This document shows, one piece after another, positions 5,157 to 58,840 of a DNA stretch of 64,000 bases. Below the pieces are notes generated by a model. That model was given only the letters and a program-made list of their open reading frames with translations, searched no databases and was not told the DNA's origin. Both the position numbers and the translations under genes were made by a program. Position 1 is the stretch's first letter; each line of letters opens with the position of its first letter. Where the stretch lies: contig JACQWR010000025.1 in NCBI GenBank assembly GCA_016209105.1, positions 41,314-105,313 on the forward strand, written 5' to 3'. This stretch comes from Deltaproteobacteria bacterium (GTDB lineage Bacteria; Desulfobacterota; Syntrophia; Syntrophales; JACQWR01).

Positions 5157-6407
5157 ATGTGCCGCTTGTTTGCCGTTACCAGTAATGAGGCCCTTTCTCC
5201 CATGGTGGCCATAAGCGCCCTCGATGTCATGAAGGAAGGTCATGACGGGTCCGGCGTGGGACTATTCCTGACCGATCTGGGTGGTGATTTTGAGCGCTTC
5301 AAAGGCAAGCCCATCCTGTCCGGCATCTTTTCCCACGAGGGACTCAAGACGCTGGACCGGTATATGATGGGTCTTGATTTCATGGTGAAGTACGAGCTTC
5401 TGATCCGTCCCACCCATGAACCTCCCGCGGGAACGCCTGAGCGCGATAACTACGTGATACGCGTTTACGATTATCCGCCCCGTTGGGAGGAACTAAGCGC
5501 CGACGAGCGCGAATACCGTCTGATGATGTGCCAGCTTACGTTGAGAACGATGGGAGAGGCGGACAGTTCAACAAAGGTGTTCAGCTTCTGGCCGGACGTG
5601 ATCATGATCAAGGAAGTGGGTGATCCTATGGCCATTGCGGAGTATCTGGGGCTTGAGCGTTCCGATCTCCGGGCGCGCACCATGCTTTCCCAGGGACGGC
5701 AGAACACCAACTATGCCATAGACATCTATGCGTGCCATCCCTTCTTTATCCAGGGGATTGCCACGATGACGAACGGGGAAAACACGGCTTTTGTGCCCAT
5801 CCGCGAGTTTCTCACGTCGCGCAAGAACCCCGGCTATACGGGTTACCAGTCCGACTCGGAGGTGTTTACCCATATCCTCCACTATACATGCCGCACCTTG
5901 GGCCTGGGGCTGGAAATGTACAAACATATCATCACACCGCTCACGGATGATGAGCTGGAACGTCATCCCGACGGCAGGCAACTGCGGCTCATCAAGCAGA
6001 GCTGCCGGCCGCTGATTATAGACGGTCCCAACTGCGTAATCGGGTGTCTTCCCGACAAAACGCTCTTTATGGTGCAGGACAGCAAGAAGCTGCGCCCCGG
6101 CGTGGCGGGCGGTACGGCCGGTATTTTTGCCTTCTCTTCGGAGATGTGCGGCCTGGACGCGGCCATTCCCGGACGGGACAAAAGCCGGGACTTCCAGCCG
6201 ATGAAATACGACACCGTTTTTGTGGGACCGGAGCGTCAGGAGATAGAAAAATGGAATCAATGGGAAAACTTGCCCCATCTACATTATCCACCAAAGATCT
6301 GCCCTGGCAGCTTCTCTGGAGCAAGGAAAAGTGCACCCTCTGCGGTCGCTGTACGGCGGTCTGTCCCGTGCAGGCCATTGAACTCGGTGTGCACCGGAAG
6401 CGCGTAG
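5157..6407 (+). CDS. Glutamate synthase, glutamine amidotransferase (class II, Ntn) domain protein (archaeal-type split GOGAT, GltB1-like)
   Basis: N-terminal MCRLFAV (Cys2 nucleophile). The last ~52 codons run out of frame over the start of the next gene, and there is no earlier stop. Confidence 0.75.
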   Translation: MCRLFAVTSNEALSPMVAISALDVMKEGHDGSGVGLFLTDLGGDFERFKGKPILSGIFSHEGLKTLDRYMMGLDFMVKYELLIRPTHEPPAGTPERDNYVIRVYDYPPRWEELSADEREYRLMMCQLTLRTMGEADSSTKVFSFWPDVIMIKEVGDPMAIAEYLGLERSDLRARTMLSQGRQNTNYAIDIYACHPFFIQGIATMTNGENTAFVPIREFLTSRKNPGYTGYQSDSEVFTHILHYTCRTLGLGLEMYKHIITPLTDDELERHPDGRQLRLIKQSCRPLIIDGPNCVIGCLPDKTLFMVQDSKKLRPGVAGGTAGIFAFSSEMCGLDAAIPGRDKSRDFQPMKYDTVFVGPERQEIEKWNQWENLPHLHYPPKICPGSFSGARKSAPSAVAVRRSVPCRPLNSVCTGSA

Positions 6408-7885
6408 TCCAGGTCGGCATGGGACTTACGGAAAAACCGGGCAACGTCTTCGGCGTCTATCACGGCATTCGCCAGCGCACCGAGCCGGCCTACGCCTGCA
6501 TCGGCTGCGGGATGTGCGACCTCGTCTGTCCCAATCACGCCATCATGCCCGCCCACAATGACGAACGGGACAAGCTGCGGATGCATATCAACTTGGGCGG
6601 TGAACCGCGGCGCCGTGGGGGACGACGCAACGACCCGCGGAGTTTACTGGACGAGATCAAGTTCGTGCGCATTTCCATGCTTACCGATCCGGCGCTCGAC
6701 GCGGGCCGCCACGAATTTGAGCTGAGGACCCTGCTGGGACGGATCCTGCCGCCCGAGGCGATCGTGAAGGTTGCCCGGGAAAACGGCTGGATCCCGCCGG
6801 TGCGTGAAATCTATCCGCTCATTGTGGGCAGCATGTCCTTTGGCGCCCTTTCCCCCAACATGTGGGAGGGTTTGCAGATGGGCGTGGCTTACCTGAACGA
6901 GGAAAAGGGGATGCCGGTGCGCATCTGTACCGGAGAGGGGGGATGCCCGCCGAGGCTTTTGCGTTCCCGTTTTCTGAAGTATGTGATACTGCAGATTGCC
7001 AGCGGCTATTTCGGCTGGGACGAGATCATTCACGCCCTTCCCGACATGAAGGAAGACCCCTGCGCCATCGAGATAAAATACGGCCAGGGGGCGAAGCCGG
7101 GGGACGGCGGCCTGCTCATGTGGTACAAGGTGAACAAACTGATTGCGGCGATCCGGGGCGTACCGCCCGGGGTCAGTTTGCCCAGCCCGCCCACCCACCA
7201 GACCAAGTATTCCATCGAGGAAGCAATCGCCAAGATGATCCAGTCCATGTCCATGGCATGGGGGTTCCGCGTGCCGGTATATCCTAAAATATCGGCGACG
7301 AGCACCGCCTTAGCCGTGTTGAATAACCTGGCACGCAATCCCTATGCCGCGGCGCTGGCCATGGATGGAGAGGACGGGGGGACGGGCGCCGCCTACAATG
7401 TCTCTATGAACCACATGGGGTATCCTATTGCCAGCAATATCCGCGACGCCTATCTCAATCTGGTCAAGGTGGGGAAGCAGAACGAGATACCGCTGTTTGC
7501 GGGCGGCGGCATTGGCAAGAACGGCAACCTGGCGGCAAATGGAGCGGCGTTGATCATGCTGGGAGCGAGCGGCATTCAGGTCGGGAAATATCTGATGCAG
7601 GCCGCGGCCGGATGTCTCGGCTCCGAGACGGACCGCTGCAATATCTGCAATATCGGGCTTTGCCCCAAAGGGATTACCTCTCAGGATCCGCGCCTGTACC
7701 GCCGCCTGGATCCGGAAAAGGTGGCGGAGCGCCTGGTGGATGTCTATATGAGTTTCGACACCGAACTGAAAAAGATCGTCGCCCCCCTGGGGCGCTCCAC
7801 GTCGCTGCCCATCGGCATGTCCGACGCCCTCGGCATTGCCGACCGCAACGCGGCCGAGCGGCTGAAGATACAGTATGCAGTCTAA
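6251..7885 (+). CDS. Glutamate synthase FMN-binding domain protein with N-terminal 2x[4Fe-4S] ferredoxin domain (GltB2-like)
   Basis: ATG at 6251 preceded by GGAG. CTLCGRCTAVCP and CIGCGMCDLVCP cluster motifs. GltS FMN-domain motifs SMSFGALS, IEIKYGQGAKPGDGG and DGEDGGTGAA. Confidence 0.85.
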   Translation: MESMGKLAPSTLSTKDLPWQLLWSKEKCTLCGRCTAVCPVQAIELGVHRKRVVQVGMGLTEKPGNVFGVYHGIRQRTEPAYACIGCGMCDLVCPNHAIMPAHNDERDKLRMHINLGGEPRRRGGRRNDPRSLLDEIKFVRISMLTDPALDAGRHEFELRTLLGRILPPEAIVKVARENGWIPPVREIYPLIVGSMSFGALSPNMWEGLQMGVAYLNEEKGMPVRICTGEGGCPPRLLRSRFLKYVILQIASGYFGWDEIIHALPDMKEDPCAIEIKYGQGAKPGDGGLLMWYKVNKLIAAIRGVPPGVSLPSPPTHQTKYSIEEAIAKMIQSMSMAWGFRVPVYPKISATSTALAVLNNLARNPYAAALAMDGEDGGTGAAYNVSMNHMGYPIASNIRDAYLNLVKVGKQNEIPLFAGGGIGKNGNLAANGAALIMLGASGIQVGKYLMQAAAGCLGSETDRCNICNIGLCPKGITSQDPRLYRRLDPEKVAERLVDVYMSFDTELKKIVAPLGRSTSLPIGMSDALGIADRNAAERLKIQYAV

Positions 7886-7949
7886 CAAAGGCATCCCGTG
7901 GAACGTTTGCCGGGAATCAGGGATGGACACCAACAAGAGGTGAGGAATC

Positions 7950-9176
7950 ATGGGTAATCCGGTCAATACGGGTGATACGGCTTGGATACTGGTCTGCTGT
8001 TCTTTGGTATTGCTGATGACGCCGGCGCTCGGACTCTTCTATGGGGGCATGGTCCGCCGGAAGAATGTTCTTTCCACGCTGACCATGAGCTACACGTTCA
8101 TGGCCCTGATCGGGGTGCAGTGGGTGCTCTACGGATATTCCCTGGCCTTCGGCAAGGATATCCAGGGGATCATCGGCGGCCTGAACTTTGTGGGATTCAA
8201 CGACGTCGGTGCCGTCCCGAACGGCGACTACGCCAAGACAATCCCCCACGGGCTCTTTGCGGCTTTTCAGATGATGTTTGCGGTCATCACGCCGGCCCTG
8301 ATTACCGGCGCCTTCGTGGAGCGTGTGAAATTCAAGAGTTTCCTCCTGTTCAGTCTGCTCTGGGCCACGTTGGTCTACGATCCCCTGTGCCACTGGGTTT
8401 GGGGAGCAGGGGGGTGGCTGAAAAATCTCGGCACACTCGATTTTGCCGGCGGGACGGTGGTGCACATCGCGGCCGGTTTTTCCGCTCTTGCCTTTGCCTT
8501 GGTCATCGGGCCGCGCAAGGGCTTCGGCAAGTCTCCCCTGGAACCCCATAGCATCCCCCTGACGGTTCTGGGCGCCGGGTTATTGTGGGTTGGTTGGTTC
8601 GGATTTAATGCCGGCAGTGCGCTGGCGGCAAACGGTGTCGCCGTAAATGCACTCCTGACCACCAACACCTCGGCGGCGACGGCGGGACTGGTCTGGATGC
8701 TGCTGTCATGGCTGGATGGCCGGCCGAGCACGTTGGGAATCGCGACCGGCATGGTCGTGGGGCTTGCGGCGGTGACACCGGCGTCGGGCTACGTCACACC
8801 CCTGGCGTCCATGGTTATCGGAGCCGTGGCTGCTCCTCTTTCCTATTATGCCATGCGCTTTCGTGATCGTCGCGGGCTGGATGAATCCCTGGATGTGTGG
8901 GCCTGCCATGGCGTGGCCAGCTGCTGGGGTATGCTCGCGACCGGTCTGTTTGCCACCGTGGCCGTGAACAGCGACGGCGGCAATGGCCTCTTTTTCGGAA
9001 ATCCCGCACAGCTCAGCATTCAGCTTCTGGCCATACTGGTCACCGTGGTGTTCAGTTTCGGGGTTACCTATGTACTGGCCAAATTGCTTCATGAGAGCAT
9101 CGGACTCAGGGTAAGCGCCATGGAGGAAGAAGTAGGCCTGGATATCAGCTCCCACGGGGAGCGGTCATACTCGTAA
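7950..9176 (+). CDS. amt: Ammonium transporter (Amt family), copy 1
   Basis: NTGDTAWILV, LGLFYGGMVRRKN, DFAGGTVVHI and WFGFNAGSA signatures. 408 aa. Confidence 0.92.
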   Translation: MGNPVNTGDTAWILVCCSLVLLMTPALGLFYGGMVRRKNVLSTLTMSYTFMALIGVQWVLYGYSLAFGKDIQGIIGGLNFVGFNDVGAVPNGDYAKTIPHGLFAAFQMMFAVITPALITGAFVERVKFKSFLLFSLLWATLVYDPLCHWVWGAGGWLKNLGTLDFAGGTVVHIAAGFSALAFALVIGPRKGFGKSPLEPHSIPLTVLGAGLLWVGWFGFNAGSALAANGVAVNALLTTNTSAATAGLVWMLLSWLDGRPSTLGIATGMVVGLAAVTPASGYVTPLASMVIGAVAAPLSYYAMRFRDRRGLDESLDVWACHGVASCWGMLATGLFATVAVNSDGGNGLFFGNPAQLSIQLLAILVTVVFSFGVTYVLAKLLHESIGLRVSAMEEEVGLDISSHGERSYS

Positions 9177-45788: not shown

Positions 45789-46166
45789 TTCAATAAGGCG
45801 GAGAGATCTTGCCTGATGAAGCGAAGCATTGCAGAGGGATTTGACTCATACACCATAAGAGTGCAGCTACACAGCCGAAGCGGAACGCACGTATTTTCCA
45901 GAGCTGATATATGGATGCATCTGCTGCAGCCACATATGGGGAAATGACTACATCCCAGCTACATCCTATAACGGTAAAGGGAGTGCTTGTCAATCATTTT
46001 TTAATCCGGCTTTCCGGGATGAAGATCTGTTCCCGATGAGAAACTTGCAAACAATAATTGCTTGAAAAAGCGTTGTATTTCATATATAGGACGAAAAAGC
46101 ATTTGCTTGTGTACCGGTGTTTTCGCAGAGAAGAATTTAAAAAAATGCAAAAGGAGGAAAACAGGC

Positions 46167-46499
46167 ATGGCAAAGGCAAAGCGGGGAGATAAATTTGGTT
46201 GTGCGGAATGCGGTCTTGTAGTTGTGGTGGATGAAGGATGCGGTTGCGCAACGACCGACATTCTGTGCTGCGGAGAACCGATGGTCAAGGGAGATATAAA
46301 GACGAGCAAGACAAAGAAAAAACCCGCGGCAAAAAAGGCGCCCAAAAAGAAGGTGGCAAAAAAGGCCAAGCCCAAAGCAAAGAAAAGCGCCGCTGCAGCG
46401 AAAAAGACCGCCGCCACCAAGAAGAAGGCGGTAAAGAAACCGGCGGCAAAGAAAGCAAAGACAAAGAAAGCGCCGGCCAAGGCCAAGAAGAAAAAATAA
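46167..46499 (+). CDS. Desulforedoxin-like Cys4 domain fused to histone-H1-like Lys/Ala-rich tail
   Basis: RBS aaaggagg. The N-terminus GDKFGCAECGLVVVV...ILCCGEPMV carries the CxxC...CC pattern of desulforedoxin. The C-terminal ~70 aa are KKPAAKKAPKKK-type repeats. Confidence 0.7.
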   Translation: MAKAKRGDKFGCAECGLVVVVDEGCGCATTDILCCGEPMVKGDIKTSKTKKKPAAKKAPKKKVAKKAKPKAKKSAAAAKKTAATKKKAVKKPAAKKAKTKKAPAKAKKKK

Positions 46500-50362: not shown

Positions 50363-50980
50363 TTATGCTTGGATTGGTATTTTGGCCGGGATGTTTTCCT
50401 TTTTGATTCGAATTTCTACCACGGGAGGGTTAACATCAAAGTGTGTTGCTACCTCATTGGATATATACGACCAGACATCGTCCGGCATTTTTGCAAATTT
50501 TTTAAACGTTTCCTGATACTTTGCGACAACAGCGTTGCATACTTTTTCCAGTTGCACCGTCGGCACCAGTAGCTGACCCGCAAACCATTCTCCCTGGGTC
50601 TCAAACCAACTGATGTCTTCCTGCAACAGGGAAAGGCGCCATTTTACATATTCATCCGGTGTCCGGAATGGGAGGTCATCGTAACATGTTTTATGCAAAA
50701 CGTAATGTCCCAGTTCGTGAGCGAGGGTGTACCGGTATTTTTCATTAAACTGGCTGTATTGCGTTTCATCCACGTAGATCGTGGAAATGTCCCGGCTGAG
50801 AAATCCGTTGAGGCCGTGATCCTTGTATAGCCGGGGAAATGGAAAGATATCGAGCCCTAAATTCAATTCTATAATTTCTTCAACGGGTATGGGTATCTCA
50901 AATGACGGGTGGTGCTGATTAAGAAATGCCTGTACTCTGCTACCGATGTCTGCATAGCTGAGATAGGGAATATTAAACAT
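50363..50980 (-). CDS. ImmA/IrrE-family zinc metallopeptidase
   Basis: The HEXXH motif reads AHELGHYVLH. An ATGA overlap links it to the upstream XRE gene. Confidence 0.85.
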   Translation of the reverse strand: MFNIPYLSYADIGSRVQAFLNQHHPSFEIPIPVEEIIELNLGLDIFPFPRLYKDHGLNGFLSRDISTIYVDETQYSQFNEKYRYTLAHELGHYVLHKTCYDDLPFRTPDEYVKWRLSLLQEDISWFETQGEWFAGQLLVPTVQLEKVCNAVVAKYQETFKKFAKMPDDVWSYISNEVATHFDVNPPVVEIRIKKENIPAKIPIQA

Positions 50981-51360
50981 CAGCGCAATTCTTTCTTAAT
51001 AGCTTTGATAAGTTGTTGCAGGTCTTCTTCATTAAGGGTTTTATCTCTTACCGTCCTGAAGAGAACAGGGAGCGCGTTCATGACTTCTTCGTTGGACACG
51101 ATATCGGCCGGCAACTTTCCCGCGCTCGTGATTGCCAAATCGCAGAACGCCAGCCAGTCCTCCGTTCCTTCTTCAATCCCCAAGGCCAAAGCATACTTTA
51201 GGAGAAGTTCCTTCGAATGCGGCGGAGGAAACAAACCTCTCTCGATCTTGCTGATGTTTCCCGGGTCAAGCGCGTTTACACGACAAAACTCTCGTAGCGT
51301 AAGGCCTTTTGCTATTCTCTTTTCTTTGAAAAAGTTTCCAAAGGTCTTGGCAAAAACCAT
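50980..51360 (-). CDS. XRE-family helix-turn-helix transcriptional regulator
   Basis: FKEKRIAKGLTLREFCRVNALDPGNISKIERG is the HTH_3 pattern. ATG at 51360 with RBS gaaggggg. Confidence 0.85.
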   Translation of the reverse strand: MVFAKTFGNFFKEKRIAKGLTLREFCRVNALDPGNISKIERGLFPPPHSKELLLKYALALGIEEGTEDWLAFCDLAITSAGKLPADIVSNEEVMNALPVLFRTVRDKTLNEEDLQQLIKAIKKELR

Positions 51361-51513
51361 AATTTCACCCCCTTCCTGTTGTAAAAAATAATACAACAGG
51401 AGTCATCTGTCAATAGAAAATAACGGATGGATACTTGTCCCTTTTCATCATTATTTATCGGGAAATGTGTATCGGTTACCGGAGCGCGATCAGGATAGGG
51501 ATGTAATGGGGTT

Positions 51514-51861
51514 TCATTTTGTAATTACCAGGAAAGTCATTCCGCGCTTCCGGCACCAGTTCCGGGCGGCTTCATGCTTGCGTAGCGTGTCGGGATTGGT
51601 CAGATACTGCCCGCCCTTCACCTCGTGCAGTTCCACAGCGCCGTCCATCCTTTCGACAAGAAAATCGGGATGATAGCCACGCACATTCCCTGCCTCCGTG
51701 ACGTACTGGATAGCAATGCCATGATTTTTCGTCCATTTGGCAACGGTCTTGTCCTTCTCCAGGCGCTTCATGTATTGCCATTCCCAGGACGAGTCGTAAC
51801 GCTCAACGGAATATGCGCTTTTAAGGGGGTTTTCAAAATCGCCGCGCTCACTGGTCGGCAT
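51514..51861 (-). CDS. Small stand-alone PD-(D/E)xK nuclease-fold protein (TnsA-N-terminal-like)
   Basis: YHPDFLVERMDGAVELHEVKG provides PD...ExK. It overlaps the helicase gene end by 14 nt. Confidence 0.6.
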   Translation of the reverse strand: MPTSERGDFENPLKSAYSVERYDSSWEWQYMKRLEKDKTVAKWTKNHGIAIQYVTEAGNVRGYHPDFLVERMDGAVELHEVKGGQYLTNPDTLRKHEAARNWCRKRGMTFLVITK

Positions 51862-53857
51862 GTCCTGCCTCCTGCTTATAGTTTACAATGCTGGCAACCA
51901 ATCCGGGACGGTTCTTGAAGTTGGCAGCCAACCGGTGGCGACAGTTGAGGGCGTGTCGCAATTCCAAAACGCTCGCCGTGCCGACGGTTTTTTCGCCCAG
52001 CATCTTCTTGCGGACATGATCCATGAGCACGCCGTAAAGATAACCGAGTTCATGGGAGCCTATGCCTTCCTCCGCCAGGAGGTCGGCGGCTACATCTCTG
52101 ACACTGGTCTTCAAAAGCTCGGCAAGCTGGATGGGGTCGTCAATTTCACTCAGAGGCTTCCTAACGCCATAGAGCGCCGGGGCTTCACGAATCTCCCGGA
52201 AACCGGATCCGTCCAGGGTCTGCCCCACTATGCCGCTGATCTCAACGCGCGATATTTCCGTCTCCACGCCATAATCAAACTCGTCCAATATCTTTTGCCA
52301 CTTAGGATAATCGCTCGTCTCAATAGTGATATTGGCCAAATCATCGTCAAAATCGGCCTTTTCTTCTTCCAGCGGTTCGGGAAGAGGGATAAGCAGATCG
52401 GGATTGACGACGAATTGCGGCTTACGTTTGGGCGGCAGGTCTTCGTCTCCAAACAGGGTCGCCTGTCCCACGTCCTTGCGTACTTTCGCGCCGACGATAT
52501 CCCACAGCCAGTCGTGTTTGAGCTTTTCATGGTCCACGATGGCGCATATTTCCTGAAGATCCCTGTCGCGCACGTTCAGCCGGAGGCCGCGCCCCACAAC
52601 CTGCTGGCCATAAACCCGGCTGGAAAATTTGCGCAGCAGAAGGATGACCGAAACGGCAGGGACGTCCCAACCTTCGCGAAGCATGAGGACGCTGACGACG
52701 GCTTCATAAGGACTGCCGGACTTTCCCAGCTTGCGGGCGGCCTCCCGGTCTTTTTCGTCCGATTGTTCGGTGACCAGCAGGGTGCGGAGCTTGAATTGCT
52801 CTTCCAGCATGTCCCTGGCCTGCTGGGCGTCTCTGATGGTGATGGCGACGACAAAAAGGATGGGGTTATAGGCTCCTTTCGCCAAGGCGTCGGCGCGGCG
52901 TTTCTGTTCGGACAGCCGATCCAGGGCGATGCGTATCTGCTTGTGCATGGGGTCCGAGTCGGTGACCCACTGGGTTGACGACAGGCCCTTTTCGATCCGT
53001 TCAAACTCCTCGTCCATCTCGTCCACGGTGCGTTTTTCGCCCGTTTCCGGGTTGGTATAGGTGAGCTCGACGGAAGAAAGCTGGGGCTGATAAACAACGA
53101 TATTCTTGATGATCGGCGGTACTTCCGCCTGCGCGTCTGTGATGCTGTAATCGAAAATCATTTTCGTGTCCGGCACCTGTCCATCGGCGCGGTCAGGGGT
53201 GGCGGTCGTATCCAGCCGGAATTGGGAAATTTGTCTGAGGGTGAAGAGGGTGCTGTCATACTCCGCCGCCGGGGTGTTGTGCGCTTCATCGTTGAAGACG
53301 GCAATCCTCTCGTCCGCGTTCATCAGGATGGCCAGGTTGCGCTTGCCGCTGATATTGGCCTGGTACAACTGATGGATGTTGCCAAGGATGACGCCGTGAT
53401 CCCGGATGCCCTGCGGCCCTTCGCCGGGCTGCATAACGTGCAGCCCCAGGGTGTTGGCGTAATGCTCGGTGCCGGGCGGAAAGAAGCCGAAGTCGCGGAA
53501 TACCCTGGCGTCCGTAAAATCGTCTTCCAGCCGGTCGCGCACGATGGTGTTGGGGCAGAGGAGAAGGAACTTGTGAATATCGTGGCAGACCTTCAGCCAC
53601 GCCACCACCGCGCCGATAATGGCCGTCTTGCCGCCGCCCGTGACGATATTGAGCAGGAGGTCCTTCCACTGGAGCAGTTCATAGGCATAGACCGTGCGCA
53701 TGAAGGCCTCTTCCTGGTGCCGCCACAGACGGCGGGGCGCATCGGGGCGGGTGATGTGCGTCAGGAAGTCGCGGGTGAGCGGATTCACGTCCGGGAACGC
53801 CTTGGATGCCCACCAGGCACGGAAGTCCTGCTCATATGGCGCAAAAGAGTAATACAT
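51848..53857 (-). CDS. SF2 DEAH helicase, Type III restriction Res-subunit-like, without recognisable nuclease domain
   Basis: Motif I TGGGKT, motif II FNDEAHN, motif III TATP, and motif VI QQVVGRGLR. No PD-(D/E)xK motif is visible in the ~220-aa C-terminal region. Confidence 0.8.
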   Translation of the reverse strand: MYYSFAPYEQDFRAWWASKAFPDVNPLTRDFLTHITRPDAPRRLWRHQEEAFMRTVYAYELLQWKDLLLNIVTGGGKTAIIGAVVAWLKVCHDIHKFLLLCPNTIVRDRLEDDFTDARVFRDFGFFPPGTEHYANTLGLHVMQPGEGPQGIRDHGVILGNIHQLYQANISGKRNLAILMNADERIAVFNDEAHNTPAAEYDSTLFTLRQISQFRLDTTATPDRADGQVPDTKMIFDYSITDAQAEVPPIIKNIVVYQPQLSSVELTYTNPETGEKRTVDEMDEEFERIEKGLSSTQWVTDSDPMHKQIRIALDRLSEQKRRADALAKGAYNPILFVVAITIRDAQQARDMLEEQFKLRTLLVTEQSDEKDREAARKLGKSGSPYEAVVSVLMLREGWDVPAVSVILLLRKFSSRVYGQQVVGRGLRLNVRDRDLQEICAIVDHEKLKHDWLWDIVGAKVRKDVGQATLFGDEDLPPKRKPQFVVNPDLLIPLPEPLEEEKADFDDDLANITIETSDYPKWQKILDEFDYGVETEISRVEISGIVGQTLDGSGFREIREAPALYGVRKPLSEIDDPIQLAELLKTSVRDVAADLLAEEGIGSHELGYLYGVLMDHVRKKMLGEKTVGTASVLELRHALNCRHRLAANFKNRPGLVASIVNYKQEAGHADQ

Positions 53858-55503
53858 TATGTGACCTCGATGGTCTGCACGACGGTGCGTTCTCCGCCCT
53901 GGTCGTCCTGCACCGAGCAGGCAATCGTGTATTCACCGGCTTTGGGGAACGCATATTGGGCCGCCAACAGCGGCCTGCCCGTCTTTTTATCCCGTAAAAA
54001 CGAATAGCCCTGCGTGGACGTGAAACGTCCCGGCTTGTGCTTAAAATCCCACTGGACGTTGGCAATCATGCCGTCCTTGTTCAAGCTGACGGACTCCGAA
54101 ACGTCGAGCTCGTAAGTCAGGGCTTTGATGCGGCGCACCGCCACCCGCACTTCCGGCGGCTGGATAAAGCTGAGGAGGGGGGCATAGTCGCGGCTTTTGA
54201 TGACCACATGCTCGCGGAACTGGTCGTCTTCAAGACGGATCAGGTTAAGGCGCACAAAGTCTATGCGCCGGTTTTCGCGGGCGGCCAGGATTTCCGAGGC
54301 CTTGCGCGCGTCCGGGCCGAAGTTCCAGCCGAGCATGACGCCGTGATTGGCCCGGCGTTCTTCGTAAACGGCCCTGGCAAAAAGGGCAACGTCATCTCTG
54401 CCGATACGCGACCTCCGTGACGGCGCGCCGACGTAGAGCGGGACGCCGTAGCGCATGCCGTGGATGGCTTCCGTAACGCTCTCCGGCCGGCCGCCGAAGG
54501 CCTTGACGACAAACTCGCGGAACTGCTCCGCGGTGTATTGCTCCAGTTTGGGCGCTTCGTAGATCCCCCAATGCTCGATCGTAAAATCGGGAACGGGGAA
54601 CAGCATGCCGATTTTTTCTTCCACTATCTTGGCGATGCGATCGGCGGTAATGGCGACGGCAATCCGGGATTGGTCAGAGGCGACCCAGCGGCGGTTGAGG
54701 CGCTGGGCAACGGTGGTTGTGGTGCCCCCGCCGGAAAAGAAGTCGGCAACCACGTCGCCCTCGTTAGAGGAAGCCTTGATGACACGTTCAAGTAGTGGTT
54801 CTGGCTTTTGAGTCGGATAGCCGATACGCTCAAGACGATCGGAATTGTTAATCTTATCTATATCCCACACATCATCCAGAGGGCTTCCGTAGGCCATTGC
54901 TTCTTCAAGGTATCTTCTTACCCTTTGACCACCTCCGGCATCAGAAAGCACATACTCTTGTCCCTGTTCGTCTACATGCACCTTCTGTTTCCGTTTTTTA
55001 ACGTATTCGTCCTTATTCTCCCAAGGACGTTTGGGGTAGTTAAAGAGGTTCTTTTCTTGTTTTGCATAGAAAAGAAGGGAATCGTGCCTCCGTTCTAAGT
55101 GATTATCAAGTTGCTTGTTCCATCCTGAATAATGCCAGATCACTTCATTTCGGAAGTTACCGGCCCCAAAAATCTTGTCCATCTCCACCTTGACATAGTG
55201 GGCGGCGTGCCAGTCGAGATGCACATAAATGGAGCCGGTGGATTTAAGCAGGCGTTTCATCTCCCAGAGCCGCGCGTTGAGCCAGACCAGGTAGCCGGGC
55301 ATGCCGACTTCCCAGATATCGGAGAAGGAGCGCACCTCGTTCTTGTCGCCGAAGATGACGTTGTAGTTGCGGCCGGAAAAGAAGGGCGGGTCAATATAAA
55401 TCAGATCAATGCTCTCGCTCGGCAACTGGCGCAGATATGGAGGTTGTCGCCGAAAAACAGACGGTTGGCGCCCGTGGGGAAGAGTTCTTTCAGTTTGCGG
55501 CAT
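53857..55503 (-). CDS. N6-adenine/N4-cytosine DNA methyltransferase (beta-class, Mod-like) with C-terminal PKD-like domain; 5' part displaced by a frameshift
   Basis: Motif IV DLIYIDPPFF comes before motif I DFFSGGGTT. The C-terminus WDFKHKPG...YAFPKAGEYTIACSVQDDQGGERTVVQTIEV resembles a PKD/Ig fold. The TAATG junction is shared with the helicase gene. Confidence 0.8.
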   Translation of the reverse strand: MPQTERTLPHGRQPSVFRRQPPYLRQLPSESIDLIYIDPPFFSGRNYNVIFGDKNEVRSFSDIWEVGMPGYLVWLNARLWEMKRLLKSTGSIYVHLDWHAAHYVKVEMDKIFGAGNFRNEVIWHYSGWNKQLDNHLERRHDSLLFYAKQEKNLFNYPKRPWENKDEYVKKRKQKVHVDEQGQEYVLSDAGGGQRVRRYLEEAMAYGSPLDDVWDIDKINNSDRLERIGYPTQKPEPLLERVIKASSNEGDVVADFFSGGGTTTTVAQRLNRRWVASDQSRIAVAITADRIAKIVEEKIGMLFPVPDFTIEHWGIYEAPKLEQYTAEQFREFVVKAFGGRPESVTEAIHGMRYGVPLYVGAPSRRSRIGRDDVALFARAVYEERRANHGVMLGWNFGPDARKASEILAARENRRIDFVRLNLIRLEDDQFREHVVIKSRDYAPLLSFIQPPEVRVAVRRIKALTYELDVSESVSLNKDGMIANVQWDFKHKPGRFTSTQGYSFLRDKKTGRPLLAAQYAFPKAGEYTIACSVQDDQGGERTVVQTIEVT

Positions 55504-55793
55504 TGCTCGTTCTCCGCCAGGAACCGGTCATTATGCCCGAATTCCACACGCTGGACTTCCTGAAAAGGCAGGCGGATCGTGGGGTAGGCGTGCTGAAACT
55601 TGGTAACTTTTACCTCATGCCGCCGCGTCTCCACTTCCCAGCCGAGCGGAGCTTCGTCAACCGGAACCGCCCCGAATCGCGTCGGCAGTTGGAAGTGTTC
55701 TTTCTGTTCGGGGATGCTGTCTTCACCGGGCGCAGGCGGCTCGATGAAGGAGATTTCCAGTTCTTCTTCTGAGGTCGTTTTTTTGCGGGGCAT
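55401..55793 (-). pseudogene. Displaced N-terminal segment of the methyltransferase gene (different frame)
   Basis: It ends ...NRLFFGDNLHI, while the other frame continues YLRQLPSESIDLIYIDPPF. Together they form the usual xxGDNLxxLxxLPxxSIDLIYxDPPF block, which implies a 1-nt deletion near 55431-55440. Confidence 0.65.
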
Positions 55794-55934
55794 AAGCCAG
55801 TCTCTTGAAGTGGCTGGGCACAATACAACCATTACCAGTTGTCATTTTGCATATTTACTAAAGTCCGTCAACCGAATACTTCGGGAATATATCTGCCATC
55901 TCAGGCACCCTCTTTTGCCCCTCCTGTAGCCGTC

Positions 55935-55962: not shown

Positions 55963-56153
55963 AACAGTAAAATCAGCATATAGCTAACAATATTAACAAG
56001 TTGCTTGTAAAATCTTCATCCGGTTGCGAGGGTGAATCTCTCCGGCGGAGGAAGAGAAACTCTTGGGAGAGGGGAAGCTTCGGATCTCCCAAGCCCCCTT
56101 TTCCAGAGGGGGAAATTAACGGGAGGAAAGAAAGGGAAAGGAGGTTGAGAACC

Positions 56154-56597
56154 ATGTTTAGCCCAGAAATTTGGAGGTTCGGCAGAATGATGGCGCCTAT
56201 CCCTGAGATACAGAACCTGCGCAGGGAGATGAACAGGGTTTTTTCAGGGATCAGCCAGGAGGTAAGCCAGGATTTTCCCGCGGTGAATGTGTGGGTTGGA
56301 GAGAACGATGCGATTGTAAATGCCGAGATACCCGGGGTGGAGATCGAAAAAATAGATATCTCGGTTATTGCGGATTCTCTGAGCATCAGCGGCTCCCGCG
56401 AGCCGGCGACACTGGGGGAAGGCGAGAGCTACTATCGCCAGGAAAGGGATTTCGGCCGCTTTACCCGCACCCTGCGGCTGCCGTTTAATGTTGAGGCGGA
56501 TAAGGTGGATGCCCGGTACGAGAATGGGGTTCTGTCCATAACCCTGCCGCGGGCGGAAGCGGACAAGCCGAAGAAAGTGGCGATAAAGACACAATAA
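56154..56597 (+). CDS. Hsp20/alpha-crystallin family small heat-shock protein (1 of 3)
   Basis: RBS aaaggagg. FPAVNVWVGENDAIVNAEIPGV...RTLRLPFNVEADKVDARYENGVLSITLPR. Confidence 0.9.
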   Translation: MFSPEIWRFGRMMAPIPEIQNLRREMNRVFSGISQEVSQDFPAVNVWVGENDAIVNAEIPGVEIEKIDISVIADSLSISGSREPATLGEGESYYRQERDFGRFTRTLRLPFNVEADKVDARYENGVLSITLPRAEADKPKKVAIKTQ

Positions 56598-56614
56598 GGA
56601 AAGGAGATGATGGT

Positions 56615-57016
56615 ATGGCTGAGGAAAAGAGAGAGATTCAACATCAATCCGGAACAGGTACGGCGGAAGGTGTCGTGAGGAGGATCTTTGTTCCGAAGGT
56701 AGATATATATGAAACACGCGACGCGATCGTGATCATTGCGGACATGCCGGGCGTAAGCACCGATTCCGTGGAGGTTACGTTGGAGAAAAATATCCTGACG
56801 ATCAAGGGAACGGCCCTGGCGCCGACCAGAACGGGATCATACACTGCCGTTTATGCCGAGTGTGAGCCGGGAGGAGAGTACCGGCGCAATTTCACGATTT
56901 CCAACGAAGTGGATCGCGAGAAGATTGAGGCGACGGTGAAAAATGGCGTCCTGCGCCTGACGCTGCGTAAGGCCGAGCTGCTCAAGGTCCGGAAAATAAG
57001 CGTCAAGGCTGCATAA
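56615..57016 (+). CDS. Hsp20/alpha-crystallin family small heat-shock protein (2 of 3)
   Basis: PKVDIYETRDAIVIIADMPGV...RNFTISNEVDREKIEATVKNGVLRLTLRK. Confidence 0.9.
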   Translation: MAEEKREIQHQSGTGTAEGVVRRIFVPKVDIYETRDAIVIIADMPGVSTDSVEVTLEKNILTIKGTALAPTRTGSYTAVYAECEPGGEYRRNFTISNEVDREKIEATVKNGVLRLTLRKAELLKVRKISVKAA

Positions 57017-57041
57017 CAATACAAGAAAGGAGGAAAAGAGT

Positions 57042-57548
57042 ATGGCTATCAGAAATCTTGTACCCTCGCTCTGGGGAAAAGGCAATCTCCCTGCGCGACA
57101 GGCCGGGGAATATCCTGTCTTTTCTCTCCAGCGGGAACTAAACCAGTTGTTCGATGATTTTTTCCACGGGTTCGACGTTTCGCCCTTCGGTCTTACCGAG
57201 GATCGGTTCCAGGGGTTCCTACCCTCCGTGGATGTGGATGAAAGCGAAAAAGAGGTAACCGTCCGGATCGAACTCCCCGGGATGGAAGAGAAGGATGTAG
57301 ACCTCCTGCTTACGGAGGATTCCCTTACCATCAAGGGAGAGAAAAAAAAGGAGACGCAGACCAGGGAAAAAGAGTATTATCGGATGGAGCGCACCTACGG
57401 CGCCTTTAACCGTGTAATCCCGCTTCCCGATGGAATTGATACGGGGCAGGCCGACGCGTCCTTTAAAAACGGCGTTCTTACCGTCAGGATTGCCAAGACG
57501 GCGACCGCCAAGGCAAAGGGGAAAAAGATTCCCATCAAAACGGAATAA
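57042..57548 (+). CDS. Hsp20/alpha-crystallin family small heat-shock protein (3 of 3)
   Basis: PSVDVDESEKEVTVRIELPGM...FNRVIPLPDGIDTGQADASFKNGVLTVRIAK. Confidence 0.9.
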   Translation: MAIRNLVPSLWGKGNLPARQAGEYPVFSLQRELNQLFDDFFHGFDVSPFGLTEDRFQGFLPSVDVDESEKEVTVRIELPGMEEKDVDLLLTEDSLTIKGEKKKETQTREKEYYRMERTYGAFNRVIPLPDGIDTGQADASFKNGVLTVRIAKTATAKAKGKKIPIKTE

Positions 57549-57570
57549 GCATCTTTTCGACTGTCCTAAC

Positions 57571-57607
57571 GCCCCGTTCCGGTTATGATAGATGACCGGA
57601 ACGGGGC
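57571..57607 (+). terminator. 13-bp perfect stem-loop after the hsp20 cluster (terminator/attenuator candidate, no strong U tract)
   Basis: gccccgttccggt-tatgatagatg-accggaacggggc. Confidence 0.4.
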
Positions 57608-57730
57608 AAGGATAGTGTTGGAGTATCTTTCCGGCAATGTACCTGCAATCTTCCCATATATATTTTTGCCGCTGCATCCTGAAGGGAGGAAGACGCCGTA
57701 ATATCCTTCACCCGGCGTAAAGGGGCATTT

Positions 57731-58840
57731 ATGCGTGATTATTATGAGATATTGGGAGTAAGCAGGGAAGCGAATCAGGAGGAAATCAAGAAGGCCTACC
57801 GCAAGCTCGCCTTGCAGTACCATCCCGACAGGAATCCCGATGACAAGGCCGCGGAGGAGAAGTTTAGGGAAGCGGCCGAGGCCTATGAAGTATTGTGCAA
57901 TGAAGAGAAGAGGGACATATACAATCGTTTCGGCCACGAGGGATTGAAAAACATCGGTTATCAGGGCTTCAGCGGTTATTCCGATATCTTCAGTTCGTTC
58001 AGCGATATTTTTGAAGGATTTTTCGGCTTCGGCGCCGGGGGGCGCCATGCCGAGCGTGACATTCGCGGCGCCGACATCCAGGTGGTGCTGCAGATGACGC
58101 TGAAAGAGGCGGCCCGGGGCAGGAAGACGGAGATTGAAATTCCCCGCGGGGAGCCCTGCACCCGCTGTGACGGGACGGGAGCCGAACCGGGAACGAGAGC
58201 CGCATCCTGCCCCGCCTGCGGCGGCAGCGGCCAGGTGATTCAGGGGAGTAGTTTTTTCCGCATCAGTTCCACCTGTCCCCATTGCCGCGGGACGGGAGAG
58301 TACCTGGCAACGCCCTGCAAAAACTGCGGGGGAGGCCGGAGGGTCAGGGTCATGAGGAAGATTTCCGTCAAGGTTCCTCCCGGCGTTGATACGGGTTCCC
58401 GGCTGCGTATCGCCGGCGAGGGTGAAAAAGGCGACCGCGGCGGGCCGCCCGGCGACCTTTATGTCCACATAGAACTGGAGAAGCATCCCCTGTTTGAACG
58501 GGAGGGCAGCGATATCATCTGCAGGATCCCCATCAGCATGATACAGGCGGCGCTCGGCGCGGAAACAACGGTGCCGACGCTCTGGGGGGAGGAAGAGCTG
58601 CATATTCCGCCGGGAACGCAGTACGGCGACCTGTTCCGGCTTCCTGCAAAGGGGATGCCCCATCTGAGAGGAGGCGGGCGCGGCGATCAGATCGTCCAAG
58701 TGTATGTCGTGATTCCCAGAAAACTCAGCGGCGAACAGAAGCGCCTGCTGAGGGAGTTCCAAAAACTGTCCCCCCTGAAGGAGCGGGATTTTCCCGATCT
58801 GTCTCCGGAGAGCGCGGAAAGCAATCTCCGCCACCATTGA
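57731..58840 (+). CDS. dnaJ: Molecular chaperone DnaJ
   Basis: J domain [33 protein letters not shown], a G/F region, and four CxxCxGxG zinc-finger repeats. Confidence 0.95.

What the first reader, a model, noticed from the sequence alone, without database searches (positions are those of the whole stretch)
51514..53857. Res-like helicase without a nuclease domain plus a separately encoded TnsA-like PD-(D/E)xK mini-protein
Canonical Type III Res subunits carry the PD-(D/E)xK endonuclease at the C-terminus of the helicase. This helicase is only 669 aa. It has motifs I, II, III and VI, but I find no PD...ExK pattern in its ~220-aa C-terminal region. The next ORF overlaps it by 14 nt and supplies HPDFLVE...ELHEVKG. 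This looks like a domain fission of Res, or recruitment of a TnsA-type nuclease.
Basis: partly seen in the sequence, partly recalled or inferred. Interest (0 to 1): 0.55.

Follow-up and report, generated by a model that had tools for sequence, protein, structure and literature searches.

The report
Type III restriction enzyme with split Res
This is a Type III-like restriction-modification operon whose DNA-cutting domain is made as a separate 115-residue protein rather than as the tail of the helicase; the split is conserved across many phyla but I found no description of it, and this copy has a broken methyltransferase gene.

Summary
A 669-aa ResIII helicase (53857..51848, minus strand) is followed by a 115-aa PD-(D/E)xK nuclease ORF (51861..51514) that overlaps it by 14 nt, with an AGGAGG ribosome-binding site 6 nt before its ATG.

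The split is not a frameshift artefact. In about 70 related loci from more than 15 bacterial phyla and two archaeal MAGs, down to 37% helicase identity, the nuclease is always a separate 113-122-aa ORF. In 58 of 62 scored loci it starts between -14 and +5 nt of the helicase stop. It is never fused.

The small protein is the Res nuclease domain. 22 of 26 long (825-1156 aa) distant relatives of the helicase carry its homolog at their C-terminus. Profile comparison places helicase and nuclease collinearly on those fused proteins. Catalytic E27, D66, E80 and K82 are at least 95% conserved. The helicase tail shows no detectable nuclease. "TnsA-like" is a Pfam labelling overlap; there is no transposon context.

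Upstream is a β-class Mod with a swappable central recognition domain. In this window mod carries a 1-nt deletion, so this copy may be inactive or mis-sequenced.

Verdict: a conserved split-Res variant of Type III restriction-modification that I did not find described. Interest is moderate.

The parts
53857..55832 (-). mod gene: a β-class N6/N4 DNA methyltransferase of about 645 aa when intact. In this window a 1-nt deletion at 55434/55433 breaks it into a 143-aa ORF (55832..55401; the likely true start is the ATG at 55793) and a 548-aa ORF (55503..53857).
   Evidence: Pfam N6_N4_Mtase E=3e-44. PDB relatives include CcrM, RsrI and the Type III Mods Mbo45V, 6k0w and EcoP15I Mod 4zcf. Homologs are single ORFs of 623-772 aa. 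The deletion of the A in ATCATG is seen against 4 close homologs.
54679..55169 (-). Hypervariable central block of mod, the presumed target-recognition domain, lying between motif IV (DPPF) and motif I (FSGGG).
   Evidence: blastn homology to L001 and L002 breaks here. Identity per 50-aa block falls to 16-50% while the flanks are 90-100%.
51848..53857 (-). Res helicase/ATPase subunit: 669 aa, an SF2 ResIII core (about 17-451) plus a C-terminal region of about 215 aa with no detectable nuclease. Its start shares one base with the mod stop codon.
   Evidence: Pfam ResIII E=3e-13. More than 120 homolog clusters of 662-672 aa. hhalign to fused Res relatives E=4.5e-54 over columns 17-451. The C-terminal 220 aa has no Pfam hit at E<=10. 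Residues 570-660 are modelled as helical.
51514..51861 (-). Res nuclease subunit: a 115-aa stand-alone PD-(D/E)xK endonuclease with E27, P65-D66 and E80-x-K82.
   Evidence: Pfam Tn7_TnsA-like_N E=1e-12 and RE_endonuc E=9e-4. NF046055 positions 851-940 of 970. PADLOC REase_III positions 738-826 of 871. hhalign to the fused Res C-terminus, probability 99.3, E=4.7e-20. Structure model and Foldseek match to TnsA. Catalytic residues at least 95% conserved in 63 sequences.
51848..51876 (-). Translational-coupling junction: AGGAGG Shine-Dalgarno (51873..51868) 6 nt upstream of the nuclease ATG (51861), inside the last helicase codons, with a 14-nt overlap running to the helicase TGA (51850..51848).
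   Evidence: Sequence read directly. The same -14 spacing occurs in 28 of 62 loci, and 58 of 62 fall between -14 and +5 nt.

Best explanation
The locus is a three-gene Type III-like restriction-modification operon, mod then res-helicase then res-nuclease. The two functional halves of the canonical Res subunit are encoded as separate, translationally coupled polypeptides.

Shown by the evidence:
- The 115-aa protein is the homolog of the C-terminal PD-(D/E)xK domain of fused Res proteins and keeps an intact catalytic set.
- The 669-aa protein is the homolog of the Res SF2 ATPase plus a linker, and has no detectable nuclease.
- The split, the tight gene spacing and the co-inheritance of the two genes are conserved across a family spanning many phyla.
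- Mod has the β-class motif order with a swappable central recognition domain.

Inferred by analogy with EcoP15I (Mod2Res1):
- A Mod dimer reads an asymmetric site and methylates it.
- On unmodified DNA the helicase subunit, bound to Mod, uses ATP as a switch for long-range movement along the DNA.
- The nuclease subunit is made in roughly equal amounts by coupled translation. It docks non-covalently where the fused domain would sit, probably on the conserved helical C-terminal region of the helicase, through its own conserved but disordered N-terminal 20 residues.
- It cuts when two complexes meet.

In this particular window mod carries a 1-nt deletion. This copy is therefore either inactive or contains a sequence error.
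For: - Domain matches of the small ORF to the C-termini of full-length Res models.
- Helicase homologs are uniformly 662-672 aa in more than 120 clusters at 68-96% identity. Nuclease homologs are uniformly 115-118 aa.
- In an exhaustive search, full-length relatives with E below 1e-59 are 655-714 aa. Proteins of 825-1156 aa appear only at E of about 1e-37 or weaker.
- 22 of 26 of those long relatives have a C-terminal homolog of the small protein. These domains score as Pfam RE_endonuc and/or TnsA-like_N.
- hhalign shows collinearity: helicase 17-451 to fused 21-494, and nuclease 8-108 to fused 696-799.
- The nuclease ORF lies immediately downstream in every locus that extends far enough and is never fused. 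58 of 62 loci have spacing between -14 and +5 nt.
- Helicase and nuclease identities to the window co-vary, r=0.96.
- E20, E27, P65, D66, E80 and K82 are at least 95% conserved.
- PD-(D/E)xK fold model and TnsA structural match.
- AGGAGG before the nuclease ATG, and a TGATG junction between mod and the helicase.
- Mod: PF01555, PDB relatives that include Type III Mods, and a hypervariable central block.
- The DNA shared with the closest loci ends exactly at the nuclease stop codon.
Against: - No biochemical data exist for any member. Complex formation, ATP dependence and cleavage are all inferred.
- The helicase model is poor (mean pLDDT 63, residues 409-570 below 50). A cryptic fold in that stretch is therefore not excluded by structure, only by the lack of conserved catalytic residues and of profile hits.
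- The roughly 200-aa linker regions of the split and fused forms do not align.
- Pfam scores the small protein higher as TnsA-like_N (48.8 bits) than as RE_endonuc (19.5 bits, below the gathering score).
- By sequence Mod is at least as close to Type IIβ methyltransferases such as CcrM and RsrI as to Type III Mods.
- mod is frameshifted in this window.
Confidence: 0.78

Rival explanations
1. Independent recruitment or ancestral separateness. On this view the family never had a fused Res. A nuclease-less ResIII helicase partnered with a pre-existing stand-alone TnsA-like mini-nuclease, and the fused Res proteins arose by fusion or acquired their domain separately.
For: - The top Pfam hit of the small protein is Tn7_TnsA-like_N (48.8 bits), against RE_endonuc at 19.5 bits.
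- Stand-alone homologs of similar size exist in phages outside any restriction-modification context.
- The linker regions of split and fused forms are not alignable.
- No rooted phylogeny was made.
Against: - The fused proteins closest to the helicase (P0320, P0322, P0332, P0299) also carry the nuclease domains most similar to the small protein. This fits co-descent of the two halves.
- The order and spacing of the two halves are collinear with fused Res.
- Fused Res is the general state in Type III systems (PMC4490356, PMC8259958).

Functionally this rival predicts the same machine. Only the history differs.
Confidence: 0.1
2. The split is a pseudogenising frameshift or a sequencing or assembly error in a normally fused res gene.
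For: The two ORFs are in different frames and overlap. The neighbouring mod gene in the same window does carry a 1-nt deletion.
Against: - The stop position and the separate ATG are conserved in about 70 loci from independent assemblies, down to 37% identity, and none is fused.
- Both ORFs keep their catalytic residues.
- A Shine-Dalgarno site precedes the ATG.
Confidence: 0.02
3. Programmed ribosomal frameshifting in the overlap produces a fused full-length Res, so the split is only apparent.
For: The overlap of -14, -11, -8 or -4 nt leaves a short stretch in which both frames are open.
Against: - There is no slippery heptamer or homopolymer in the window's overlap.
- The junction sequence is not conserved among loci.
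- The spacing varies, and in 9 loci the nuclease starts after the helicase stop codon, at +1 to +5 nt. These include L029, where the two ORFs share a frame and are separated by a stop codon.
- An ATG or GTG start is present in every locus, at the position expected from the alignment.
Confidence: 0.03
4. The small nuclease acts on its own, for example as a selfish or homing-type endonuclease, a repair nuclease or a toxin. It is merely linked to the helicase and is not a subunit of the restriction enzyme.
For: - It is a complete minimal PD-(D/E)xK fold.
- Related small nucleases occur alone in phages.
- No interaction data exist.
Against: - Strict adjacency, coupled translation and co-divergence with the helicase (r=0.96) across phyla.
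- It is the only nuclease in the operon, and it corresponds to the domain that is covalently attached in the relatives.
- A 115-aa core has no evident DNA-recognition module.
Confidence: 0.05

Closest known systems
Canonical Type III restriction-modification enzymes (EcoP15I/EcoPI, Mod2Res1; PDB 4ZCF; PMC4490356, PMC4005696)
   Same: - mod lies upstream of res in one coupled operon.
- Mod is a β-class N6/N4 methyltransferase of about 645 aa with a central variable recognition domain, and EcoP15I Mod is a detectable sequence relative.
- Res function combines an SF2 'ResIII' ATPase with a PD-(D/E)xK nuclease placed C-terminally, after a linker of about 200 aa.
   Different: - The nuclease is a separate 115-aa polypeptide.
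- Sequence similarity to EcoP15I-type Res is marginal (NF012027 E=9e-7 over 40 residues).
- Mod has a C-terminal region of about 250 aa with a weak PKD-like match.
- No biochemistry exists for this family.
BPTD_3080-family restriction endonuclease (NCBIfam NF046055, 970 aa) and the uncharacterised fused ResIII-RE_endonuc proteins of 825-1156 aa found here (such as P0332, P0350, P0320, P0299)
   Same: They are the nearest fused relatives. Both halves of the split enzyme match them collinearly (helicase to model positions 454-616, nuclease to 851-940), and the nuclease subtype is the same.
   Different: They are single polypeptides. The scores of 64 and 46 bits are far below the family cut-off of 800, so the window proteins are not members. 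The linker regions are not alignable.
TnsA, the Tn7 transposase endonuclease subunit (PDB 1F1Z, 1T0F; Pfam PF08722)
   Same: It is the best solved structural match for the small protein (Foldseek probability 1.00, TM about 0.6). The catalytic core has the same E...D...(E/Q)xK geometry; the identity of the TnsA catalytic residues is recalled from memory. Like the small protein, it is a separately encoded nuclease subunit that works within a multiprotein machine.
   Different: TnsA is about 270 aa and has a C-terminal domain that is absent here. No tnsB, tnsC or tnsD genes or transposon ends occur in the window or in related loci. The genomic partners here are a methyltransferase and a ResIII helicase.
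Heterodimeric restriction endonuclease R.BspD6I (large nicking subunit plus small catalytic subunit; PDB 2P14)
   Same: It is a precedent for a small, separately encoded PD-(D/E)xK catalytic subunit that depends on a large partner; that functional statement is from memory. It appears among the structural matches (rank 9).
   Different: It is a Type IIS system with no helicase or ATPase, and the structural match is weak (E=0.06).
Type III systems with an additional helicase-like ATPase 5' of mod (BspHIV, Eco86II; PMC8259958)
   Same: It is another documented three-gene departure from the two-gene Type III plan, and it involves a nuclease-less helicase-like protein.
   Different: There the extra ATPase is additional to a normal fused Res and lies upstream of mod. 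Here the nuclease-less helicase is the Res ATPase itself, and the nuclease is the detached piece.

Membership tests
Type III restriction-modification system | mod gene immediately upstream of res in one operon | tested here: met
   The mod stop and the helicase start share one base at 53857. The same order occurs in most of the 83 loci.
Type III restriction-modification system | Mod is a β-class N6-A/N4-C methyltransferase (motif IV before motif I) with a central target-recognition domain | tested here: met
   PF01555 E=4e-44. DPPF lies at residue 135 and FSGGG at 353 of the reconstructed Mod. The block between them is hypervariable. Type III Mods are among the PDB hits. In this window the gene is frameshifted.
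Type III restriction-modification system | Res carries SF2 helicase/ATPase motifs (ResIII) | tested here: met
   Pfam ResIII E=3e-13. Motifs I, II, III and VI are invariant.
Type III restriction-modification system | Res carries the PD-(D/E)xK endonuclease on the same polypeptide, C-terminal to the helicase | tested here: not met
   The nuclease is a separate ORF here and in all of about 70 related loci. The helicase C-terminus has no detectable nuclease.
Type III restriction-modification system | ATP-dependent cleavage that requires two inversely oriented unmodified sites; Mod2Res1 stoichiometry | not testable with these tools
   This needs biochemistry on an intact homolog.
BPTD_3080-family restriction endonuclease (NF046055) | Whole-protein score at or above the curated cut-off of 800 bits | tested here: not met
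   The helicase scores 64.3 bits and the nuclease 46.5 bits.
TnsA / Tn7-like transposition | N-terminal PD-(D/E)xK catalytic domain of TnsA type | tested here: met
   PF08722 at 48.8 bits, above the 26.5 cut-off. Foldseek matches to 1t0f and 1f1z with probability 1.00.
TnsA / Tn7-like transposition | TnsA C-terminal domain, giving a protein of about 270 aa | tested here: not met
   The protein is 115 aa and ends with the core fold. The match covers only TMt of about 0.3 of TnsA.
TnsA / Tn7-like transposition | Adjacent tnsB, tnsC and targeting genes | tested here: not met
   The neighbours are a methyltransferase, a helicase, an HTH protein and an M78 peptidase. No transposase appears in the gene tables for L081-L083.

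The most novel reading that the evidence does not exclude
The detached nuclease is not simply a Res domain held non-covalently. It may be a dissociable, regulated subunit. Its conserved, intrinsically disordered N-terminal tail would dock onto the helicase's C-terminal helical domain only after the ATP-triggered switch, or only when two complexes collide. The number of nuclease subunits per complex would then be free to differ from one. For example, a nuclease dimer could allow double-strand cleavage by a single complex. That would make this family a natural three-component system with a licensing step for cleavage that fused Type III enzymes lack.
Probability: 0.15. Interest if true: 0.6.

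Novelty: new variant of a known kind. Interest (0 to 1): 0.4.

Why it matters
How Type III enzymes bring two nuclease domains together after long-range ATP-triggered movement is still debated (PMC6158743, PMC4490356). A natural family in which the motor and the nuclease are separate proteins gives a ready-made system for several experiments: titrating, mutating or swapping the nuclease independently of the motor, asking where and when it docks, and testing the stoichiometry of cleavage.

There are practical consequences too. Current annotation names the two genes only 'DEAD/DEAH box helicase' and 'TnsA endonuclease N-terminal domain-containing protein'. Restriction-modification and defence-system finders that expect a fused Res may therefore miss or mislabel this family, and the 'TnsA' label could wrongly suggest a transposon.

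Tried and rejected
- PDB sequence search with the small protein gave only chance hits, E of 0.5 or more. With the helicase it gave only weak generic SF2 hits.
- The helicase AlphaFold model was poor (mean pLDDT 63), probably because the alignment held only homologs at 68% identity or more. Its Foldseek search returned only generic SF2 helicases.
- Literature searches found no description of a Res split into helicase and nuclease genes. One search with phrase terms returned only noise. The library is incomplete and REBASE could not be consulted, so prior notice elsewhere cannot be excluded.
- No homolog of the helicase was found in the plasmid collection. Only one viral contig carried one.
- No tRNA and no convincing flanking repeats mark the edges of the module.
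- I considered that the downstream HTH and M78-peptidase pair (CapH/CapP-like) regulates the system. I rejected it as a conserved part because it is absent from all 83 related loci and lies outside the shared DNA.
- I rejected the PD...EEK string in the helicase tail as a nuclease motif.
Full report
**What is in the sequence**

The minus strand between about 55832 and 51514 carries a tightly packed operon. It has three parts:
- a DNA methyltransferase gene (Pfam N6_N4_Mtase, E=3e-44);
- a 669-aa ResIII helicase (53857..51848);
- a 115-aa ORF (51861..51514).

The mod stop codon and the helicase start codon share one base. The helicase and the small ORF overlap by exactly 14 nt and are in different frames. 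An AGGAGG Shine-Dalgarno sequence lies 6 nt upstream of the small ORF's ATG, inside the last helicase codons. Helicase motifs I (GGGKT), II (DEAH), III (TAT) and VI (QxxGRGxR) are present and invariant among homologs.

**Is the small ORF a nuclease, and of which kind?**

Pfam assigns it to Tn7_TnsA-like_N (E=1e-12), with a weaker match to RE_endonuc, the endonuclease domain of Type III Res proteins. NCBIfam and PADLOC are more telling. The small protein aligns to positions 851-940 of the 970-aa BPTD_3080-family Res model and to positions 738-826 of an 871-aa Type III REase model. The helicase aligns to the upstream parts of the same models.

An AlphaFold model (mean pLDDT 81, core above 85) gives the α-βββββ-α-β core of PD-(D/E)xK enzymes. 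Foldseek against the PDB returns TnsA at probability 1.00, followed by VRR-NUC, NucS/EndoMS, Cas4-like proteins and the small subunit of R.BspD6I. Across 63 family members the residues E20, E27, P65-D66 and E80-x-K82 are at least 95% conserved. The protein is therefore an intact, selected PD-(D/E)xK nuclease.

**Is there a hidden nuclease in the helicase tail?**

I found none.
- Residues 452-669 give no Pfam hit even at E<=10.
- The only residues conserved at 95% or more are aromatic or structural: W452, P493, W520, Y529 and G598.
- The only confidently modelled part, 570-660, is an all-helical bundle.
- A literal PD...EEK string at 486-500 lies in a low-confidence proline-rich stretch and is not conserved. 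I treat it as chance.

One caveat applies. The helicase model is poor overall (mean pLDDT 63), and residues 409-570 are not structurally resolved.

**Artefact or architecture?**

This was the key test, and the split is the architecture of the family.
- Homologs of the helicase in more than 120 clusters at 68-96% identity are all 662-672 aa.
- Homologs of the nuclease are all 115-118 aa stand-alone proteins, and several come from contigs of the same lengths as the helicase hits.
- A scan of one genome per species found 92 relatives; the best 80 were fetched as loci. They come from Desulfobacterota/Proteobacteria, Chloroflexota, Verrucomicrobiota, Bacteroidota, Planctomycetota, Actinomycetota, Nitrospirota, Patescibacteria, KSB1, Elusimicrobiota and others. 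They include one cultured Mesorhizobium and two archaeal MAGs.
- In every locus that extends past the helicase, a homolog of the small nuclease follows immediately as a separate ORF of 113-122 aa. It is never fused.
- Of 62 loci scored in full, 28 have the same -14 overlap, 11 have -11, 8 have -4 and 6 have +1. In all, 58 lie between -14 and +5 nt.
- Helicase and nuclease identities to the window co-vary with r=0.96.

A recent frameshift or a sequencing error is therefore excluded. Programmed frameshifting is also unlikely. The junction sequence is not conserved, it has no slippery motif, and in several loci the nuclease starts after the helicase stop codon.

**Fission of Res, or a borrowed TnsA?**

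The evidence favours fission.
- An exhaustive HMMER search shows that full-length relatives with strong scores are 655-714 aa. Proteins of 825-1156 aa appear only from E of about 1e-37.
- 22 of those 26 long proteins contain, at their C-terminus, a segment homologous to the 115-aa protein.
- Pfam calls these segments RE_endonuc, in several cases also TnsA-like_N, and in P0299 TnsA-like_N above the cut-off.
- In profile-profile comparison the helicase family aligns to columns 21-494 of the fused-protein profile (E=4.5e-54). The nuclease family aligns to columns 696-799 (probability 99.3, E=4.7e-20). About 200 divergent linker residues lie between the matches on both sides.
- The fused proteins nearest to the helicase also carry the nuclease domains nearest to the small protein.

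The two genes are thus the two halves of a Res subunit, broken at the boundary between linker and nuclease. 'TnsA-like' is a labelling overlap between two related Pfam families. There is no TnsA C-terminal domain and no transposition gene nearby. I did not root a tree, so the direction of the event is inferred, not shown. It could be a fission in this lineage or a fusion in the others.

**The methyltransferase and the unit of inheritance**

DNA similarity to the closest loci runs from about 55890 to 51514, ending at the nuclease stop codon. The transferable unit is therefore mod, helicase and nuclease.

Reconstructed Mod (645 aa) has motif IV (DPPF) at residue 135 and motif I (FSGGG) at 353. 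The block between them is hypervariable, at 16-50% identity where the flanks are 90-100%. This is the behaviour expected of a swappable target-recognition domain. It explains why L001 has a helicase 96% identical to the window's but a Mod only 68% identical. Solved relatives include CcrM and RsrI, and also the Type III Mods Mbo45V, the H. pylori Mod and EcoP15I Mod.

**State of this copy**

In all homologs examined, Mod is one ORF reading '...FFGDNLHIMRQLPSESIDLIYIDPPFF...'. The window lacks one base, ATCATG becoming ATCTG at 55434/55433. This splits Mod into a 143-aa ORF and a 548-aa ORF. The site is not a simple repeat, so classical phase variation is unlikely. The lesion is either a genuine inactivating mutation or a sequence error. 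Type III restriction needs Mod for site recognition (PMC8259958), so a real lesion would silence the whole system harmlessly.

**Mechanism and comparison**

Homology, collinearity, conservation of the catalytic residues, coupled gene arrangement and co-inheritance are shown. The rest is inferred by analogy with EcoP15I (PMC4490356, PMC4005696):
- a Mod dimer binds and methylates an asymmetric site;
- the helicase subunit provides ATP-triggered long-range communication;
- the nuclease subunit docks non-covalently where the fused domain would be, and cuts when complexes converge.

The nuclease's first 20 residues are conserved (G7 and E20 at 95% or more) yet predicted to be disordered. They correspond to the conserved 'K-x-V-F-N-x-V' lead-in of the fused domains. 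This makes them a candidate docking element, but that is speculation.

The system meets the Type III criteria for gene order, Mod class and ResIII motor. It fails the criterion of a single helicase-nuclease polypeptide. I therefore file it as a split-Res variant that works like a Type III system, not as a canonical member.

I found no description of this arrangement in the searchable literature. The nearest documented departure is an extra helicase 5' of mod in some m4C Type III systems, which is a different thing.

**Verdict**

It is also less dramatic than a new system: it is a subunit-organisation variant of a well-known enzyme class, and it has no experimental data. Interest is moderate, at 0.4.

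Noticed in passing
window 55433-55434 (minus strand), within mod 55832..53857: There is a single-base deletion relative to four close homologs, ATCATG becoming ATCTG. It splits mod into a 143-aa ORF and a 548-aa ORF. All eight other loci checked have one intact ORF of 623-772 aa. It is either a real inactivation or a sequence error, and it is not in a simple repeat.
   Followed up: yes
window 50363-51396 (minus strand): An XRE-type HTH protein (138 aa) and an M78/ImmA-IrrE metallopeptidase (205 aa; PADLOC CapP E=2e-12) overlap by one base. They lie directly downstream of the restriction-modification module in a stretch of lower G+C (0.49). They have their own σ70-like promoter match at 51413..51385. 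They are absent from all 83 related loci, so they are not part of the system. Whether they regulate it here is unknown.
   Followed up: partly
window 54679-55169 (mod central region): This block is hypervariable among otherwise near-identical systems (16-50% identity against 90-100% in the flanks). That fits swapping of the target-recognition domain and multiple specificities within the family.
   Followed up: yes
window 53857-54150 (Mod C-terminus, residues about 464-547 of the 548-aa ORF): There is a weak PKD-domain match (PKD_4 E=2e-4, below the gathering score) at the end of a C-terminal extension of Mod about 250 aa long. The extension is conserved in the family, and its role is unknown.
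   Followed up: no
L030:1926-6000, L067:3096-6001, L081:4049-5992: In some relatives other defence-type genes are inserted between mod and the helicase gene. L030 has an Mrr_cat-STAND NTPase (927 aa) plus a DUF1828 protein. L067 has a PRiA4_ORF3 protein, a ThsB-like TIR protein and an AAA ATPase. L081 has a PIN protein. The operon seems to tolerate, or to attract, embedded defence cargo.
   Followed up: partly
Phage records KM236246.1 (11051-11347) and KP881232.1 (50199-50540): Stand-alone homologs of the 115-aa nuclease, at 36-41% identity, occur in Bacillus phage Moonbeam (annotated 'endonuclease') and Sinorhizobium phage phiM9 (annotated 'head completion/closure'). Neither sits in a restriction-modification context.
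   Followed up: no
L011 and L079 (helicase ORFs): In two relatives the first in-frame stop lies well inside the helicase-homologous region (L011: 2174 within the match 945-2951; L079: 6108 within 6001-8112). This suggests occasional decay of the system, like the mod lesion in the window. I did not inspect the sequences further.
   Followed up: no
window 56001-58840 (plus strand): Three consecutive small ORFs (198, 133 and 168 aa) look like Hsp20/α-crystallin proteins by eye. They are followed by a DnaJ-like ORF (369 aa) immediately upstream of the restriction-modification module. I did not check them with profiles.
   Followed up: no
window 46062-46499 (plus strand): A 145-aa ORF has a cysteine-rich N-terminal part and a long Lys/Ala-rich tail (AKKKPAAKK-type repeats), which is histone-H1-like or DNA-binding-like in composition. 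I did not examine it.
   Followed up: no
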